The notes under the pieces: generated by a model
The model's database searches: none
Seen by the model: only the letters and a program-made list of their open reading frames with translations
Told to the model about the DNA's origin: nothing
Shown: in pieces, positions 26,790-62,154 of the stretch
Layout of the letters: every line of letters begins with the position of its first letter
Numbering within the stretch: position 1 is the first letter of the stretch
Source of the DNA: Dehalococcoidia bacterium
GTDB lineage: Bacteria > Chloroflexota > Dehalococcoidia > UBA2979
Length of the DNA: 64,000 nucleotides
Assembly: GCA_965249675.1 (NCBI GenBank)
Contig: OZ252250.1
Coordinates: forward strand, 644,731-708,730
Reading direction: 5' to 3'
Translations under genes and position numbers: made by a program

Positions 26790-27569
26790 CTACTCGCCGG
26801 GCTCAACCGTGAAGCGGCCGCTATCGGAGCGCCCGAATACCTCGGGGAAATAGGTCTCCTGGGCATGCGTGGGGGCGACGAAGAAGTCGTCTGGCGCCGT
26901 GGCGCGCGCGTAGTAGACGTACTCGTGGACACCTCTCGGGAGCCGCGCGGCGTGCAGCGTCAGCCGGTCGTCGCGAATGTCTACCTGGTCCCAGGGGCTG
27001 TAGTACCAGCGGTACCAGGGGGCGGCGTACGACTGCCCGCCTCCCTGGACGGCCTCCGCGCGCTCTGCCTCAAGCTGCCGCTTGAGCCAGTCGGAAACGA
27101 TGTTGAGGCGCGGATCGATGGGCTCCAGCCCGGCGGGCAGGAAGTCCTCGACCCTGGCGAAGAGGCGGTCGGCCGGCGCCACCATCGTCACGGTCACCCG
27201 CACCACGTCGCCTAGCCGGACAGTCGTGACCGCTCGGTCAGGCTCATCAAGGAGCGAATAGCGATGAGAGACCGAGAAGCCGCGGTTGAGCGCCTCAACC
27301 TCGCTCGCCGGGGTCAGGTATCTGAGGTTGAGGCCGTAGTACATGCGCCCTGGGCCGCTCGTGTCTCGCTCGAACTGAAGGCGGGCCACCTCGCCGAGCG
27401 GCAGCTCCCCGAGCGCGACCAGCGCACCGTCGCGATCGTCGCCCCCGGGTACGTCAAAGTGGCCCTGGAGCAGCTGGCGGGTGTCCAGCCAGACCGCGTA
27501 GTCGTAGACCCCCCGGGTTAGGCGCCGGATAGCGTCTCGCCCCCGGGCATCACACCCGCCGATCGCACC
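26790..27569 (-). pseudogene. Stand-alone alpha-2-macroglobulin C-terminal (MG/receptor-binding-like) fragment of ~200-260 aa; the rest of the usually >1500-aa protein is absent
   Basis: DIRDDRLTLHAARLPRGVHEYVYYARATAPDDFFVAPTHAQETYFPEVFGRSDSGRFTV matches the bacterial A2M C-terminal consensus (D.RDDRV.LF...L..G.H...Y..RA..PG.F..PP..AE.MYYPE). The open frame runs to a TAG at 27570-72 and the first start codon is GTG 27389. No upstream A2M ORF exists. Confidence 0.55.
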
Positions 27570-27605: not shown

Positions 27606-28487
27606 TCAGGGCTGGTGGACGGCGACGAGCCGATCGAGCACCTCCCGCAGGTCGGACTCACTGAGCGGGCCGAACGCCCGGTCGCCGGCAGTGTCGGGAC
27701 CGCTATTCGGCGGCACGGTCGCAAATGCCGGGTGGCGGGCCACGCCCATCTCCCCCGCCAGGGAGCGCTGGTCACGATCATCGAAGTCGAGGATCACGAA
27801 GTTGACTTGTGATTGGTATTCCAGCCTGAGCCCGTTCACGACGGGCCGCGTCAACGCGCAGGACGGTCACCAGATGGCATCGACGAAGACCAGCGTCGCT
27901 TTCCCGTTGGTCGGGAGATAGGCCCCGGTGTGGTCCACGTAGTCGGTCGGCAGTTCGTAGTCGGCCGAGATCGTGCGGGCCGGTCCGGTTGGGAAGTCGT
28001 AGACGACCGCCGGCTCGGGGGTTGCGGTCGCTCCGGGCGTCGGCGTTGCGTGCACCAGTGTCGGCGTCGCCGTCGGCACGGCAGTGGCCGGCGTCGCTGT
28101 CGGCGCGGCTGGTGCCCCAGTGGTCGGCGTCGCTGTCGGCGCGGCTGGTGCCGCAATGGTCGGCGTCGCTGTGGTTGCCGCCGTGGCCGGTGCCGGCGTC
28201 GCCGCCGGCGTCGTCACCCCGGCCTGGGTCGACTCTACGGTCGGCGCCGCCCGGGCGGCCGTCGTCTGTTGCGGTGCCGAGGGCGCCGTCGGCGCCTGGC
28301 TGCTCGCCTCTGCCGTGGAGGTCTCGGTCGCCCGCCCTGCCGCCGGCGTTCCGACGGTCTCTGCGGTCGCGGCCGTTGCAACCGGGCTCACCGCCGCCGG
28401 AGCATCGTCACCGCCGCCGCTGCAAGCCAGTGACGCCACCACGACCAGCACACCAGCCAGCCACGACGCGCGCCGCACGTCGCCCAT
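27606..28487 (-). CDS. Thioredoxin-fold lipoprotein with in-frame TGA at the first Cys of the CxxC motif (W-[TGA]-P-S-C): candidate selenocysteine UxxC thiol-disulfide oxidoreductase, or opal-disrupted pseudogene
   Basis: Signal peptide plus lipobox (MGDVRRASWLAGVLVVVASLAC|SGG) and an Ala/Thr/Pro-rich tandem-repeat linker. The thioredoxin fold (TLVFVDAIW-TGA-PSCALTRPVVNGLRLEYQSQVNFVILDFDD...HPAFATV...) continues in the same frame across TGA 27867-69. Confidence 0.6.
27830..27858 (-). ncRNA. Two hairpins 9-37 nt downstream of the in-frame UGA (candidate bacterial SECIS-like element)
   Basis: mRNA: UGA CCGUCCUG [CGCG-UUGA-CGCG] [GCCCGU-CGUGA-ACGGGC]. Second hairpin has a perfect 6-bp stem with a G/U-containing 5-nt apical loop ~27-31 nt after UGA. 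Confidence 0.3.
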
Positions 28488-28574
28488 GGTCGAACTCCCG
28501 GCAGCCAACAGAGAGGCGCACAGTGGACCGCCCACCAGACGATCAGTCTATGTCAGTCCCCTGGCAGGTCACAG

Positions 28575-30523: not shown

Positions 30524-32188
30524 CTAGTGAGCAGCGCTCGTCAACCAACCAAACTTCTGCGGTTTCCGCTTGGCATCGGCGGCGATCGGCACGTTGATCA
30601 GGGATGGTCGGTCAAGCGTGAGCGCCTCGGCCAGCGCGGCATCGAGCTCCTCGATCGTTTCGGCGTTGTAGCCGACGCCTCCCAGGCCCTCCATCATCAC
30701 GTCGTAGCGGGCGGCCGGATTCATCGCACCGGGCGGCACCATACCGCTGTCGATCTGCTCCTGAGTGTGGCCACCAATCCCGCCGTTGTTGAAGACGACC
30801 CAGACGATCGGCAGGCCGTAGCGGACGGCCACCTCGCACTCGGTGCCGGCGAAGCCGAATGCCGCGTCCCCCTGCAGGCAGAGGATCTTGCGATCCGGGT
30901 GCTCAACGGCCGCCGCCACGGCGAAACCGTGTCCCAGACCCATAGACCCGAACGAACCGGCGTCGAGACGCGTGCGCGCCTCGTAGTTGTTGAGCACCGT
31001 CCTGCTGATGTCCATCGTCGAAGCGCCCTCGGCAACGATGATCGCATCGTTCGGTAGCGCATTGTCGATCGACTTCAGGGCGGGGTAGTACTGCAGCGGT
31101 GTCGAGTGATCGGCGTACATCGCCTCGATCGCCTCGGCGTTCTGGCGAGCCTCGGCCCTGACGGAGTTGAGCCACTCAGAGTCCTGCGGGAACTGCCACG
31201 GCTCCTCATCAAGGGCATCGAGCAGCTGCCCGAGCGTCGCCCTGGCGTCGCCAATCATCGCCACCTCGGAGGGGACGTTGACGCCGATCTCCTCGGGGTT
31301 GAAGTCGAGCTGCACGACCCGCACATCCGCGCGGAAGCGCGGCGGCAACCCGAAGTGCAACATCCAGTTGAGCCGGGCGCCGGCCAGGAAGATCAGGTCG
31401 GCGTTGGAGAGCACGAACGATCGCGCCGCTGCGGCCGCCTGCTCGTGGTCGTCCGGGAGAATGCCCTTGGCCATCGGCATCGCCAGGTAGGGGATGCCGG
31501 TCGCCTCGACGAAGCGGCGCATCTCGGCCTCGGCGCGTGAGGCGGCGATCCCCTTACCGATGATAATCAGCGGCTGTTCGGCGCTCTTCAGTGACTCGAG
31601 CGCCGCCTGCACGTCGCTGGGATCGGACATCAGCCGACTGGCGTCGGGCACGCGCGGCGCCCACTGGACGTCCTCCTCCTCCACCTGGCCAGTGATGACG
31701 TCACCGGGCAGATCGAGGTAGGCGGGCCCCGGAACACCCATGAGGGCCTTCTTGACGGCCTCAGCGATGTAGATCGGGAGGCGCTCGACCGACTCCGCTC
31801 GCTTGGCGTACTTGGCATACGGCGCCATCGCCGCCACCTGCTCGGCCTCCTGAAAGAAGCCCATGTCGACACCGCTCTGCTCACCGGCGCCGCCGAGCAA
31901 GAGCAGCGGCCAGCGGTTCGACCAGGCGTTGGCGAAGGCGGCGACCGCGTTCAGGGCGCCCGGGCCGGAGACCAGGAGTGCCGCGCCGATGCGGCCGGAG
32001 ATGTAGGAGCTGGCCTGCGCAGCGTAGGTCGCCGGCATCTCGTGCCGCATCCCTACGTAGTTGATGCCCTCACGCTGGGCCGAGCCCGCGATGATGGCGA
32101 CGGGGATACCGACCACCCCGTACATGTTCTTGACACCCTGCGTCTTGAGCGCCTTCGCGATGATCTGGTGCCCGCTGATCTTGCCCAC
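30524..32188 (-). CDS. oxc: Oxalyl-CoA decarboxylase (ThDP-dependent)
   Basis: Full-length similarity to Oxc: N-terminal ThDP PYR domain (MYGVVGIPV...GPGALNAVAAFANA), ThDP binding (LQGDAAFGFAGTE...NNGGI), C-terminal YDVMMEGLGGVGY. GTG 32188 with GGGAGG RBS gives ~555 aa. Confidence 0.85.
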   Translation of the reverse strand: MGKISGHQIIAKALKTQGVKNMYGVVGIPVAIIAGSAQREGINYVGMRHEMPATYAAQASSYISGRIGAALLVSGPGALNAVAAFANAWSNRWPLLLLGGAGEQSGVDMGFFQEAEQVAAMAPYAKYAKRAESVERLPIYIAEAVKKALMGVPGPAYLDLPGDVITGQVEEEDVQWAPRVPDASRLMSDPSDVQAALESLKSAEQPLIIIGKGIAASRAEAEMRRFVEATGIPYLAMPMAKGILPDDHEQAAAAARSFVLSNADLIFLAGARLNWMLHFGLPPRFRADVRVVQLDFNPEEIGVNVPSEVAMIGDARATLGQLLDALDEEPWQFPQDSEWLNSVRAEARQNAEAIEAMYADHSTPLQYYPALKSIDNALPNDAIIVAEGASTMDISRTVLNNYEARTRLDAGSFGSMGLGHGFAVAAAVEHPDRKILCLQGDAAFGFAGTECEVAVRYGLPIVWVVFNNGGIGGHTQEQIDSGMVPPGAMNPAARYDVMMEGLGGVGYNAETIEELDAALAEALTLDRPSLINVPIAADAKRKPQKFGWLTSAAH

Positions 32189-32648
32189 TCTGCCTCCCAG
32201 TCTGCTGATGAATCTCGTCCAGGTAACCGTCACCCCAGCTCGGGTCGGCACGCACGATGCTGATGATACACGTCCGCCCCACTTCGCGCGGCCCCTGTCC
32301 GCTCTGGCGCGGACGCCGTATCGGCCCCGGCTTGAGGAACTCCGTCTGCGCCCCGGGGCGGGGCGCCGGCTCGCGTCGAGACGGGCATCCAGTCGCCCTG
32401 CTGGCCGCCGGCCCGGCTCGGCTGTGGAGGCTGTTGTCCTCGTTCTCCTTCTTCCTCCGTGCGCTCTGACTTGCGATCACTGCGCCCTGAGCCGGCTGGC
32501 GAGTACGCTACCGGGAGCGGTGCTGTCGATCGGCCACGAGGCCGGGTGGTGCGCACCGGCCGGAAGCGGAGGCCGCACCACTACCGCCCCGTGCCACCAA
32601 GAAGGAGCAAGGGGTCGGGCGGACGACAGCCACAGTGGGAGTGTGCCA

Positions 32649-37063: not shown

Positions 37064-37639
37064 CTATGTGCCCCCGGCAAGCGCCACGCCGGCCTGGAGC
37101 TGCTCCAGTTCGAGTGGGCCCAGCACCTGAGACCGTAGCACCCCCTCGGCGTCGACGAAGAGGGTCACCGGCAGCCCCGGCAGCCCGTACCGCTCGTAGA
37201 CCTCGCCGTCCGGGTCGAGTGCAACCGTGAAGGTGAGCTTCGTCTGCTTGAGGAACTGCCGCACCCGTTGAGGGTCGTCCCGCCAGTTGACCGCCAGGAT
37301 GATCAGGTCGCCCTGGCCACCTTCGGCCTGCCAGAAGCTCTCGAAGATCGGCAGCTCGGTCAGGCACGGCTCGCACCACTCCGCCCAGAAGTTCAAGACC
37401 ACCGTCTGGCCGCGGAAGTCGGAGAGCCGAACCTCCGCTCCGTCGGGTGCCCCGAGCGTGAAGTCGGGCAGGGGTCGCCCGACTTCGATCACGATCTGCC
37501 GCTCGGCCGCCGCGATCGCCGCCCGTTCGGGAGTCCGCTCTTCCTCAAGAGGCCATCCACGCCAGACGAGGAGGACCGCTAGCGCCACCAGCAGCGCGGC
37601 TGTGGCGAGTAGCGGCGGGATCGCGGCATGGACTCTCAC
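37064..37639 (-). CDS. TlpA/ResA-family thiol-disulfide oxidoreductase (membrane-anchored thioredoxin-like)
   Basis: N-terminal TM anchor and canonical VVLNFWAEWCEPC...GLPVTLFVD thioredoxin-fold motifs. Confidence 0.85.
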   Translation of the reverse strand: MRVHAAIPPLLATAALLVALAVLLVWRGWPLEEERTPERAAIAAAERQIVIEVGRPLPDFTLGAPDGAEVRLSDFRGQTVVLNFWAEWCEPCLTELPIFESFWQAEGGQGDLIILAVNWRDDPQRVRQFLKQTKLTFTVALDPDGEVYERYGLPGLPVTLFVDAEGVLRSQVLGPLELEQLQAGVALAGGT

Positions 37640-61674: not shown

Positions 61675-62154
61675 CTAGAGACTACGCCGCCTGCCAGAGA
61701 TCCCGGCCCAGCGGGACAGTCGTCCGCGCTGCCCGGCGACGAGCCGGTAACCGAGCTCCCGCAGGCCGCGCAGCACCGGCCAGTCCAGCACTGCCGCCAC
61801 CTGGCCGCCCGGAACGAGATGCAGCGCCTGTGTCACGCTCTCGCCGCCGTGGTACTCAAACCCCCGCCGGTCGACCAGGTGAGCGCTGCCGCGCACCTCG
61901 TCCTCGCTCAGCTCGGTGAGCAGGCCCGGCCTGGGCAGAGCCGAAAATGGCACGAGCTCGAGATCCTCGCCCGCCCGGGCCCGCACGAGGGTGGCGAGAC
62001 GCTGGCAGAGGCCGCAGTCATCGTCGTAGACGAGGAGCGCCCGTCCGGGGGGTTCCAACGATCGCGTGCACGACCGGCCCAGCCAGAGAGCTGCCAGTTC
62101 CAGCGAAACGGCCCCGAGGGCCAGCGCCGCCATCCACGCGAAGGACCTGCTCAC
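61675..62154 (-). CDS. DCC1-like thiol-disulfide oxidoreductase (DUF393)
   Basis: LLVYDDDCGLCQ motif. Confidence 0.75.
   Translation of the reverse strand: MSRSFAWMAALALGAVSLELAALWLGRSCTRSLEPPGRALLVYDDDCGLCQRLATLVRARAGEDLELVPFSALPRPGLLTELSEDEVRGSAHLVDRRGFEYHGGESVTQALHLVPGGQVAAVLDWPVLRGLRELGYRLVAGQRGRLSRWAGISGRRRSL

What the first reader, a model, noticed from the sequence alone, without database searches (positions are those of the whole stretch)
27606..28487. In-frame UGA exactly at the first Cys of a thioredoxin CxxC motif: candidate UxxC selenoprotein lipoprotein
On the minus strand, two ORFs (28535-27867 and 27854-27606) are in the same frame, separated only by TGA at 27867-27869. Read through, they give one protein: signal peptide and lipobox, an Ala/Thr/Pro-rich linker, then a complete thioredoxin fold (...ATLVFVDAIW-[TGA]-PSCALTRPVVNGLRLEYQSQVNFVILDFDD...HPAFATV...). 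In the canonical F-x-x-x-W-C-G-P-C alignment the TGA falls precisely on the N-terminal redox Cys. Bacterial selenoproteins of the thioredoxin fold have exactly this Sec-for-Cys UxxC substitution. The gene sits in the oxc operon, alongside other thiol-disulfide genes (TlpA-like at 37064, DCC at 61675). Counter-evidence: TGA serves as an ordinary stop elsewhere in the window, no selA/selB/selD/tRNA-Sec is visible, and other genes here are decayed, so a Cys(TGY)-to-opal pseudogene is a live alternative.
Basis: partly seen in the sequence, partly recalled or inferred. Interest (0 to 1): 0.85.

Follow-up and report, generated by a model that had tools for sequence, protein, structure and literature searches.

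The report
Selenocysteine thioredoxin-like lipoprotein gene
The in-frame TGA is a real selenocysteine codon in a membrane-tethered thioredoxin-like protein of a Dehalococcoidia bacterium, a gene that automatic annotation splits into two fragments; it is a sound but unsurprising addition to a well-known class of selenoproteins.

Summary
On the minus strand, one gene (28487..27606) encodes a signal peptide with lipobox, an Ala/Thr/Pro linker and a thioredoxin fold. TGA (27869..27867) sits on the first Cys of W-x-P-S-C.

In 41 non-redundant loci, all Dehalococcoidia/Chloroflexota MAGs except the unidentified window, 64 gene copies carry TGA at this codon and 5 carry TGC. The reading frame stays open for 81-92 codons after every TGA.

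Nineteen nucleotides after the UGA lies a 7-bp hairpin with a 5-nt loop (27847..27829). The loop starts CGU in 64 of 64 Sec forms. Four of its 7 pairs show compensatory changes, and it is absent from the five Cys orthologues. It meets all four published bacterial SECIS criteria.

TGA is also an ordinary stop in this window, including for this gene, so the recoding is local.

A pseudogene or a sequencing error is effectively excluded. The Sec machinery could not be checked: none lies in the 64 kb or in the related loci.

The likely function is an extracytoplasmic thiol-disulfide oxidoreductase. In many relatives the gene clusters with TlpA-like and DUF3179 lipoprotein genes.

I rate it a new member of a known kind (Trx-fold UxxC selenoproteins).

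The parts
27606..28487 (-). Complete selenoprotein coding sequence: 293 residues plus a TGA stop at 27608..27606. Gene callers split it into a 5' fragment ending at 27867 and a 3' fragment.
   Evidence: sequence and frame; all Sec-form relatives in the protein database appear only as fragments ending ...DAIW or starting just after.
28495..28499 (-). Shine-Dalgarno-like GGGAG, 7 nt upstream of the ATG at 28487.
   Evidence: Read directly; inferred, not tested.
28422..28487 (-). Lipoprotein signal peptide with lipobox (MGDVRRASWLAGVLVVVASLA-C22).
   Evidence: equivalent signal peptides ending in C followed by G/S/T-rich sequence occur in nearly all homologues. Lipidation is inferred.
28002..28421 (-). 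Ala/Thr/Pro-rich flexible linker (residues 23-162). It contains a 36-nt tandem repeat x2.5 at 28082..28172.
   Evidence: The linker is much shorter in relatives.
27609..28001 (-). Conserved domain (residues 163-293): an N-terminal conserved segment YDFPTGP...TGAYLPxNGK, followed by a thioredoxin fold (beta-alpha-beta-alpha-beta-beta-alpha).
   Evidence: Pfam PF00085. Alignment A1. AlphaFold model of the Cys orthologue P0002 with domain pLDDT about 80. Foldseek best matches are classical thioredoxins, TM 0.72-0.75 and rmsd 1.6-2.0.
27867..27869 (-). UGA codon 207 = selenocysteine, the attacking residue of the W-U-P-S-C redox motif.
   Evidence: TGA in 64 of 69 family copies; TGC in 5. (aligns with the N-terminal active-site Cys of thioredoxin).
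27858..27860 (-). TGC codon 210 = resolving Cys of the UxxC motif.
   Evidence: invariant column.
27829..27847 (-). SECIS hairpin: 7-bp stem (GGCCCGU/ACGGGCU) with the 5-nt apical loop CGUGA (27840..27836). The stem starts 19 nt after the UGA and the loop starts 26 nt after it. It overlaps the codons for R-P-V-V-N-G-L.
   Evidence: RNAalifold consensus on 41 sequences. Pair counts: 98.6% of cells paired and 4 of 7 pairs with compensatory changes. MFE -11.3 kcal/mol. Absent in Cys forms. Loop starts CGU in 64 of 64.
27729..27734 (-). His252-Pro253, the position of the thioredoxin-fold cis-proline.
   Evidence: Invariant H-P in alignment A1. Aligned to the I-P of thioredoxin.

Best explanation
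This is one intact gene for a selenocysteine-containing, lipid-anchored, extracytoplasmic thioredoxin-like protein of a Dehalococcoidia (Chloroflexota) bacterium.

**Decoding.** During translation the ribosome reaches UGA at codon 207. A 7-bp hairpin with a 5-nt loop lies 19 nt downstream, with an invariant C-G-U at the start of its apical loop. It acts as a bacterial SECIS: it recruits SelB-GTP-Sec-tRNA(Sec), so Sec is inserted instead of termination. A second UGA at the true end of the gene has no such hairpin and terminates. The UGA, the hairpin, its covariation and the Sec/Cys pairing are shown here. SelB binding and Sec insertion are inferred.

**Localisation and chemistry.** The product is exported and lipidated on Cys22. 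It is held on the outer face of the cytoplasmic membrane by a long Ala/Thr/Pro tether. Its W-U-P-S-C site carries out thiol-disulfide exchange: the selenolate of U207 attacks a substrate disulfide or an oxidised thiol, and Cys210 resolves the mixed selenenylsulfide. The enzyme is then re-reduced, presumably through a membrane thiol-disulfide relay. All of these steps are inferred from the fold, the motif and the gene neighbourhood.

**Context.** In many relatives the gene lies in a same-strand cluster: DUF3179 lipoprotein (CPLC), one or two TlpA/ResA-like reductases (WCxPC), then one to four Sec-Trx paralogues, often followed by MerR. This points to a dedicated cell-surface redox module.
For: 1. 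**Sec/Cys pairs.** 64 family copies in 41 non-redundant loci carry TGA and 5 carry TGC at the same codon. The Cys orthologue L048 lies in the same synteny of DUF1932, M20 peptidase, luciferase-like, EamA and CoA-transferase.
2. **Frame kept open.** The frame stays open for 81-92 codons after every TGA. Conserved residues follow the TGA: C210, R-P, H-P and F-G-P.
3. **SECIS hairpin.** RNAalifold finds one hairpin independently. 98.6% of cells are paired, 4 of 7 pairs have double changes (18 cells), 0 of 500 shuffles reach this, and slid controls give 5-55%.
4. **RNA-level selection.** Three of the four covarying pairs couple a non-synonymous change with a synonymous third-position change: V to I with CAC to CAU, P to S with GGG to GGA, and G to R with CCC to CCU (read from alignment A2). 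Selection on the protein cannot explain this.
5. **Contrast with Cys forms.** Cys forms keep only 1-5 of the 7 pairs.
6. **Published bSECIS constraints.** All four constraints quoted in PMC13188914 are met: loop 5 nt, stem 7 bp, G at loop position 2 followed by U, spacing 26 nt, MFE -11.3 kcal/mol.
7. **TGA is also a normal stop.** It terminates this gene and the MBL-fold gene, so this is not a reassigned genetic code.
8. **Sec use in relatives.** An unrelated curated selenoprotein family, UGSC (NF041046, 115.5 bits, just under its curated cut-off of 125, full-length profile match), has its own in-frame TGA on the same contig as a Sec-Trx gene in L047. BSepDB lists Dehalococcoidia MAGs with 46-49 selenoprotein genes (PMC13326102).
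9. **Fold and active site.**
10. **Gene cluster with TlpA-like and DUF3179 lipoproteins.**
Against: - **No Sec machinery seen.** No selA, selB, selD or tRNA-Sec was found in the window or in about 0.8 Mb of related loci. The rest of this genome could not be retrieved. Machinery in this very genome is therefore assumed, not shown.
- **No Rfam match.** No Rfam family matches the hairpin.
- **Weak structure statistics for the window alone.** The window hairpin has z = -1.96 against shuffles. The support comes from the comparative data.
- **Crude pN/pS is not strongly low.** Downstream of the TGA it is 0.64, against 0.45 upstream. This is probably distorted by saturation and by the RNA constraint.
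- **Function untested.** Direction (reductase or oxidase), substrate and electron donor are not tested. No conserved partner gene lies next to the gene in the window's own lineage.
- **Unmodelled segment.** The conserved N-terminal segment is modelled at low confidence.
Confidence: 0.9

Rival explanations
1. Pseudogene or sequencing error: a recent Cys (TGY) to opal mutation or a base-call error truncated an ordinary CxxC thioredoxin-like lipoprotein.
For: TGC to TGA is a single-base change. Cys-form orthologues exist. TGA is a normal stop in this window. A lone bMG10 remnant next door suggests some gene decay.
Against: The same TGA is present in 64 copies from 41 loci, all from different assemblies and mostly different species-level genomes. 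All have the downstream frame intact for 81-92 codons. A conserved, covarying hairpin follows the TGA only in TGA forms. Independent identical nonsense mutations followed by preservation of the dead 3' half are not credible.
Confidence: 0.01
2. Programmed UGA read-through or recoding to a standard amino acid (Cys, Trp or Gly) without selenocysteine. The hairpin would act as a generic read-through stimulator, or these bacteria would lack Sec machinery.
For: No Sec machinery was seen in the sequence available. Downstream hairpins can stimulate read-through in other systems (general knowledge).
Against: The recoded position is exactly the nucleophilic Cys of a CxxC motif, the classic Sec/Cys exchange site. 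The hairpin fits the SelB-type SECIS model, including the G-U in the apical loop and the spacing. A curated selenoprotein family (UGSC) shows the same kind of TGA on a shared contig. Dehalococcoidia are documented as Sec users with large selenoproteomes.
Confidence: 0.04
3. Two separate gene products: an N-terminal lipoprotein ending at W206 and an independently initiated 77-82-residue C-terminal peptide, as the gene callers annotate.
For: Gene callers find GTG/TTG starts shortly after the TGA. Database entries exist for both fragments.
Against: The split would cut a thioredoxin fold through its active site, between beta1 and alpha1. Full-length Cys orthologues show it is one polypeptide. The downstream 'starts' differ between relatives (M-N-G..., M-A-R-P..., M-T-C-A...). 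The C-terminal piece would lack a signal peptide.
Confidence: 0.01

Closest known systems
Thioredoxin selenoprotein family (PF00085, UxxC; experimentally verified in Treponema denticola, as listed in Table 1 of PMC13188914)
   Same: Thioredoxin fold. Sec replaces the N-terminal, attacking Cys of the CxxC motif. In-frame UGA followed by a coding-region SECIS. Cys-containing homologues exist.
   Different: Here the protein is a lipoprotein with a signal peptide and a long tether (extracytoplasmic), not a cytosolic Trx. The motif is W-U-P-S-C rather than U-G-P-C. His precedes the cis-Pro. A conserved roughly 45-residue N-terminal extension is present. It scores far below the TrxA equivalog model (TIGR01068, 24.9 against 96.8 bits).
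[quoted passage not shown]
   Same: Extracytoplasmic thiol-disulfide oxidoreductases with UxxC. Predicted only by comparative genomics. Common in marine and metagenomic bacteria.
   Different: The present domain is a minimal Trx fold closest to classical thioredoxins. It gives no AhpC/TSA-Redoxin (TlpA-type) match, and PF13098 is below threshold (21.5 against 27). No curated NCBIfam selenoprotein model matches it. I could not compare it directly with the representative accessions of those families.
Surface or periplasmic thioredoxin-like reductases TlpA, ResA, CcmG/DsbE and StoA, and the pneumococcal lipoproteins Etrx1/Etrx2 (from general knowledge)
   Same: Membrane-anchored or lipoprotein Trx-fold proteins acting outside the cytoplasm. 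W-C-x-x-C-type motif (E. coli DsbE has W-C-P-T-C). Weak sequence similarity to DsbE and StoA. TlpA-like genes lie directly upstream in about half of the related loci.
   Different: Those proteins use Cys and have the TlpA-type insertion and AhpC/TSA-Redoxin signature. This one uses Sec and lacks that signature. A functional link is inferred from gene clustering only.
Bacterial SECIS element (E. coli fdhF type; consensus model of Zhang and Gladyshev as summarised in PMC13188914)
   Same: Stem-loop inside the coding region just after the UGA. G followed by U in the apical loop. Spacing within 16-37 nt. Stability below -7.5 kcal/mol.
   Different: The sequence is unrelated to fdhF. It is a short perfect 7-bp stem without an evident bulged U. 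It is embedded in the codons R-P-V-V-H/N-G-L, which it appears to constrain.

Membership tests
Bacterial selenoprotein gene (Sec-UGA plus bSECIS) | In-frame UGA aligned with Cys in homologues (Sec/Cys pair) | tested here: met
   64 TGA against 5 TGC at the same codon. Cys orthologues P0001-P0011, one of them in conserved synteny.
Bacterial selenoprotein gene (Sec-UGA plus bSECIS) | Coding sequence conserved on both sides of the UGA | tested here: met
   The frame is open for 81-92 codons after the UGA in all 64 copies. There are invariant residues downstream. The coding signature on both sides is the highest in the window.
Bacterial selenoprotein gene (Sec-UGA plus bSECIS) | bSECIS model: 3-9 nt apical loop, 4-16 bp upper stem, G in the first two loop positions, 16-37 nt from UGA to loop, MFE <= -7.5 kcal/mol (PMC13188914) | tested here: met
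   Loop 5 nt (CGUGA), stem 7 bp, G at loop position 2 followed by U, 26 nt spacing, -11.3 kcal/mol. Covariation in 4 of 7 pairs. Absent in Cys forms.
Bacterial selenoprotein gene (Sec-UGA plus bSECIS) | selA, selB, selC (tRNA-Sec) and selD present in the same genome | not testable with these tools
   None in the 64-kb window or in the 47 related loci fetched up to that point. The rest of the genome could not be fetched. Indirect support: a UGSC selenoprotein gene on the same contig as a relative's Sec-Trx gene, and Dehalococcoidia listed with 46-49 selenoproteins in BSepDB.
Bacterial selenoprotein gene (Sec-UGA plus bSECIS) | Selenium actually incorporated at the UGA | not testable with these tools
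   Needs 75Se labelling or mass spectrometry.
Thioredoxin (PF00085) UxxC selenoprotein family | PF00085 domain above the gathering score | tested here: met
   26.9 bits against 23.5 with U read as C. Precomputed PF00085 on the Cys orthologues.
Thioredoxin (PF00085) UxxC selenoprotein family | Sec at the N-terminal Cys of CxxC at the start of helix alpha1; cis-Pro loop present | tested here: met
   HMM alignment to solved thioredoxins. In the model of the Cys orthologue, strand 89-94, W97-C98-P-S-C101 and helix 99-115.
Thioredoxin (PF00085) UxxC selenoprotein family | Orthology with TrxA (cytosolic, W-C-G-P-C, TIGR01068 equivalog) | tested here: not met
   TIGR01068 scores 24.9 bits against a cut-off of 96.8. 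The motif is W-U-P-S-C. A lipoprotein signal peptide is present. It is therefore thioredoxin-like, not a TrxA.
TlpA/ResA/DsbE-type thiol-disulfide reductases (AhpC/TSA-Redoxin, cd02966) | PF00578 or PF08534 signature, or DsbE/StoA NCBIfam models above cut-off | tested here: not met
   No PF00578 or PF08534 hit. DsbE 15-17 bits against 123, and StoA 17-19 against 210. By contrast the window's true TlpA-like gene at 37064-37639 scores 92 bits.
Curated NCBIfam thioredoxin-like selenoprotein families (SaoT NF040730, HUIPC-motif NF047660, VPGUxxT NF041383, DsbG-like NF041057) | Match to the family model | tested here: not met
   None of these models appears even at E <= 1 in the NCBIfam scan.
Bacterial lipoprotein | Signal peptide with a positively charged n-region and hydrophobic core, followed by a lipobox ending in Cys | tested here: met
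   MGDVRRASWLAGVLVVVASLA-C, followed by SGGG. Analogous boxes in nearly all homologues. This is pattern inspection only: no dedicated predictor was run, and lipidation is inferred.

The most novel reading that the evidence does not exclude
This may be a Dehalococcoidia-specific, paralogue-expanded family (up to four Sec copies per locus) of cell-surface 'seleno-thioredoxin' lipoproteins. It has no curated family model, and in the protein collection searched its Sec forms appear only as split fragments. Together with DUF3179 (CPLC) and TlpA-like lipoproteins and a MerR regulator, it would form a previously undescribed selenium-dependent extracytoplasmic redox module. In this family Sec is almost fixed (64 to 5), and the SECIS dictates part of the protein sequence (R-P-V-V-H/N-G-L).
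Probability: 0.35. Interest if true: 0.5.

Novelty: new member of a known kind. Interest (0 to 1): 0.4.

Why it matters
- **Annotation.** It shows that a gene appearing as two unnamed or 'hypothetical protein' fragments in the protein collection searched is one selenoprotein. It gives a simple rule (DAIW-UGA-xxC plus a CGU-loop hairpin 19 nt downstream) for re-annotating at least 64 copies in Dehalococcoidia MAGs.
- **Biology.** It adds a surface-tethered Sec-thioredoxin to the selenoproteome of an abundant, mostly uncultured marine and subsurface lineage. It also links it by gene order to TlpA-like and DUF3179 proteins, whose function is unknown.
- **RNA-protein constraint.** It is a clean natural example of a SECIS constraining the amino-acid sequence it overlaps.
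- **Limits.** It does not change what is known about selenocysteine decoding or about the chemistry of UxxC proteins.

Tried and rejected
- **Rfam.** At gathering thresholds on the whole window, and at E <= 10 around the site, nothing relevant was found.
- **tRNA-Sec.** ARAGORN found no tRNA-Sec in the window or in 42 related loci.
- **Sec synthesis genes.** tblastn with E. coli SelA, SelB and SelD against the window and all loci gave no hit. The query sequences were recalled from memory, so sensitivity is imperfect.
- **Retrieving the window's own genome.** The C-terminal fragment P0033 is identical to the window and is recorded on a 3,069,427-bp NCBI/ENA contig. The look-ups for it and for the DUF1932 neighbour returned nothing.
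- **Database search for Dehalococcoidia SelA or SelD.** I decided against spending a search on this. With only a proteobacterial query, the word-based candidate collection would almost certainly not reach them.
- **Second selenoprotein gene in the window.** No credible candidate was found.
- **Upstream hairpin.** A possible hairpin at columns 12-23 (GCGCG-UUGA-CGCG) and a lower stem pairing columns 4-9 with 44-49 were considered and dropped. RNAalifold does not keep them, and several sequences break them.
- **L036/L038 candidate.** A conserved same-frame TGA there turned out to be two adjacent genes.
- **Structure prediction of the window protein.** The Cys orthologue P0002 was modelled instead.
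- **pN/pS.** The crude estimate was not informative.
Full report
**1. The observation**

One ORF ends ...TNGKATLVFVDAIW at TGA 27869..27867. The same frame continues PSCALTRPVVNGLRLEYQ... for 86 more codons, to a stop at 27608..27606, which is itself TGA.

The probable start is ATG 28487, with GGGAG 7 nt upstream. This gives a 293-residue product. Residues 1-22 form a lipoprotein-type signal peptide (…VVVASLA-C). Residues 23-162 are an Ala/Thr/Pro linker, and residues 163-293 are the conserved domain.

With the TGA read as Cys, the domain passes Pfam's thioredoxin model (PF00085, 26.9 bits against a gathering score of 23.5). A profile of the family aligns to solved thioredoxins with the TGA on the N-terminal active-site Cys of W-C-G-P-C and H252-P253 on the cis-proline.

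I scanned all in-frame TGAs of the 64-kb window for a coding signature on both sides. This codon ranks first, and it is the only one with both that signature and a SECIS-like hairpin.

**2. Relatives: a Sec/Cys family**

A protein search returned three kinds of hit:
- Full-length proteins with DAIW-C-P-x-C (P0001-P0011, 51-59% identical).
- Thirteen diverse N-terminal fragments that all end at ...KPTLVFVDAIW.
- C-terminal fragments that start just after that point.

The DNA behind two of the truncated entries shows TGA at that codon, and the frame continues.

A scan of one genome per species found 41 loci, all from Dehalococcoidia/Chloroflexota MAGs. The count covers non-redundant loci, the window, and three more Cys-form contigs. 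It gives 64 gene copies with TGA and 5 with TGC at this codon. Every TGA copy keeps 81-92 open codons downstream.

Several genomes carry two to four Sec-containing paralogues in one cluster. Their motifs include W-U-P-x-C and W-U-Q-F-C, and more divergent ones such as T-U-P-H-C.

The Cys orthologue in L048 lies in the same gene neighbourhood as the Sec forms: DUF1932, M20 peptidase, luciferase-like, EamA and CoA-transferase. These are therefore true Sec/Cys orthologue pairs. This alone rules out a recent nonsense mutation or a base error.

**3. The SECIS element**

I aligned 41 distinct Sec-form sequences from the TGA to +63 (A2). RNAalifold predicts a single hairpin at columns 23-29 and 35-41. 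In the window this is 27847..27829: GGCCCGU-CGUGA-ACGGGCU.

Pair counting:
- 98.6% of cells are paired.
- 4 of 7 pairs have changes on both sides, in 18 cells.
- None of 500 shuffles reaches these values.
- Sliding the partner by 1-3 columns drops pairing to 5-55%.

Three of the four covarying pairs couple an amino-acid change with a synonymous third-position change. GUC (Val) to AUC (Ile) goes with CAC to CAU (His). CCC (Pro) to UCC (Ser) goes with GGG to GGA (Gly). GGG (Gly) to AGG (Arg) goes with CCC to CCU (Pro). This is read directly from A2 and points to selection on the RNA, not on the protein.

The loop begins C-G-U in 64 of 64 Sec copies. 57 copies keep 7 of 7 pairs and 7 keep 6 of 7. 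The five Cys forms keep only 1-5 of 7.

The published bacterial SECIS constraints are a loop of 3-9 nt, a stem of 4-16 bp, a G in the first two loop positions usually followed by G or U, 16-37 nt between the UGA and the loop, and an MFE of -7.5 kcal/mol or lower (PMC13188914). All are met: 5 nt, 7 bp, C-G-U, 26 nt and -11.3 kcal/mol.

Rfam has no model that matches.

**4. Local recoding, not a changed code**

In the window, TGA also terminates this very gene and the MBL-fold gene upstream. Other neighbours end in TAA or TAG.

**5. Sec machinery**

This is the one criterion I could not test. The window has no tRNA gene. The related loci have no tRNA-Sec. No selA, selB or selD was detectable in the window or in about 0.8 Mb of related loci (the queries were recalled from memory).

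The window's own genome is probably a 3.07-Mb NCBI/ENA contig that encodes an identical C-terminal fragment, P0033. It could not be retrieved.

Two pieces of indirect evidence exist. A member of the unrelated, curated UGSC (seleno)protein family has its own in-frame TGA at the UGSC motif on the same 14-kb contig as a Sec-Trx gene in L047 (NF041046, E = 1.9e-33, full-length profile match). BSepDB lists two Dehalococcoidia MAGs among the ten bacteria with the most selenoprotein genes, with 49 and 46 (PMC13326102).

**6. What the protein is likely to do**

An AlphaFold model of the Cys orthologue P0002 has domain pLDDT of about 80. It shows a compact thioredoxin fold (beta-alpha-beta-alpha-beta-beta-alpha) with W-C-P-S-C at the start of helix 1. 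The best structural matches are classical thioredoxins, with target TM 0.72-0.75 and rmsd 1.6-2.0 Å.

The protein is not a TrxA orthologue (TIGR01068 scores 24.9 against 96.8 bits). It is not a TlpA/DsbE-type protein, and it matches no curated thioredoxin-like selenoprotein model.

The signal peptide and lipobox are present in almost all homologues. Together with the tether, they place the domain outside the cytoplasmic membrane.

In the window's lineage the gene has no conserved functional neighbour. The co-directional MBL, DUF1932 and oxalyl-CoA-decarboxylase-like genes are not kept together in relatives.

In about half of the related loci, however, the Sec-Trx genes lie directly downstream, on the same strand, of one or two TlpA/ResA-like genes (WCxPC). 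Those are usually preceded by a DUF3179 lipoprotein with a Y-C-P-L-C motif, and the cluster is often followed by a MerR regulator. DUF3179 is itself listed among the selenoprotein families.

My inference is a cell-surface thiol-disulfide exchange module. In it the selenolate of U207 is the attacking nucleophile and Cys210 is the resolving residue. From general knowledge, Sec gives faster exchange and resists irreversible over-oxidation, which would be an advantage outside the cell. The direction of electron flow and the substrates are not established.

**7. Comparison with what is known, and novelty**

Trx-fold UxxC selenoproteins are the most common type of bacterial selenoprotein. Thioredoxin (PF00085, UxxC) is experimentally verified, and several exported thiol-disulfide oxidoreductase selenoproteins are predicted (Table 1 of PMC13188914). 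Dehalococcoidia are already known to be rich in selenoproteins.

This gene is therefore a new member, and arguably a distinct lipoprotein sub-family, of a known kind. Its distinctive points:
- Near-fixation of Sec in the family.
- Expansion into paralogues.
- A SECIS that constrains the R-P-V-V-H/N-G-L codons.
- Linkage to DUF3179 and TlpA-like genes.
- In the protein collection searched, every Sec form appears only as truncated fragments.

I could not check whether BSepDB already lists it.

**8. Verdict**

| Item | Verdict |
|---|---|
| Observation | Confirmed |
| Genuine selenoprotein gene | About 0.9 confidence |
| Extracytoplasmic thiol-disulfide oxidoreductase role | Plausible, roughly 0.6, but inferred |
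| Interest | Moderate (0.4): a solid re-annotation and a tidy SECIS example, not a surprise to specialists |

Noticed in passing
window 28082-28172: A 36-nt tandem repeat (2.5 copies, 94% matches) lies inside the Ala/Thr/Pro linker of the selenoprotein. The linker is about 140 residues here against roughly 20-60 in relatives, which suggests a recent expansion of the tether.
   Followed up: partly
window 26790-27389 (minus strand): A 199-residue ORF directly downstream consists only of the MG10 domain of bacterial alpha-2-macroglobulin (PF17973, 83.7 bits). These proteins normally exceed 1500 residues, so it looks like a gene remnant or a stand-alone domain.
   Followed up: no
window 30524-32251 (minus strand): A TPP enzyme scores just under the oxalyl-CoA decarboxylase cut-off (NF006721, 520.9 against 557 bits).
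   Followed up: partly
window 37064-37639 (minus strand); L014 7899-9146 and equivalents: A TlpA/ResA-like protein with W-C-E-P-C (AhpC/TSA 92 bits). Its homologues lie immediately upstream of the Sec-Trx genes, on the same strand, in about 21 of 40 related loci. In the window it is 9 kb away.
   Followed up: yes
L014 6366-7850 (and L009, L011, L015, L019, L020, L022, L025, L028, L029, L033, L034, L036, L038-L041): A DUF3179 lipoprotein with a Y-C-P-L-C motif heads the cluster of TlpA-like and Sec-Trx genes. DUF3179 is listed as a selenoprotein family (UxxC/T) in the literature, but the copy read in full (L014) carries Cys. A MerR-family regulator often follows the cluster.
   Followed up: partly
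L047 9533 (minus strand): An in-frame TGA at the UGSC motif of a UGSC-family (seleno)protein (NF041046, 115.5 bits against a cut-off of 125, full-length profile match), on the same 14-kb contig as a Sec-Trx gene. This is an independent sign of Sec decoding in that relative.
   Followed up: yes
L020 11108, L028 11225, L033 11088, L035 11588, L038 9807, L040 10133: Further Sec-containing paralogues in which the residues before the Sec have diverged (SSET-U-PHC, GAQW-U-PHC, EEQT-U-PHC, DDVL-U-PAC, DDPG-U-PAC). Some have lost the Trp that precedes the active site, yet they keep the same SECIS hairpin.
   Followed up: partly
It gave no NCBIfam match at E <= 0.001.
   Followed up: partly
window 27606-27608 and the related loci: The true stop codon of the family's genes is TAG in 37, TGA in 8 and TAA in 7 of 52 copies. 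The window's copy uses TGA both for Sec and for termination.
   Followed up: partly
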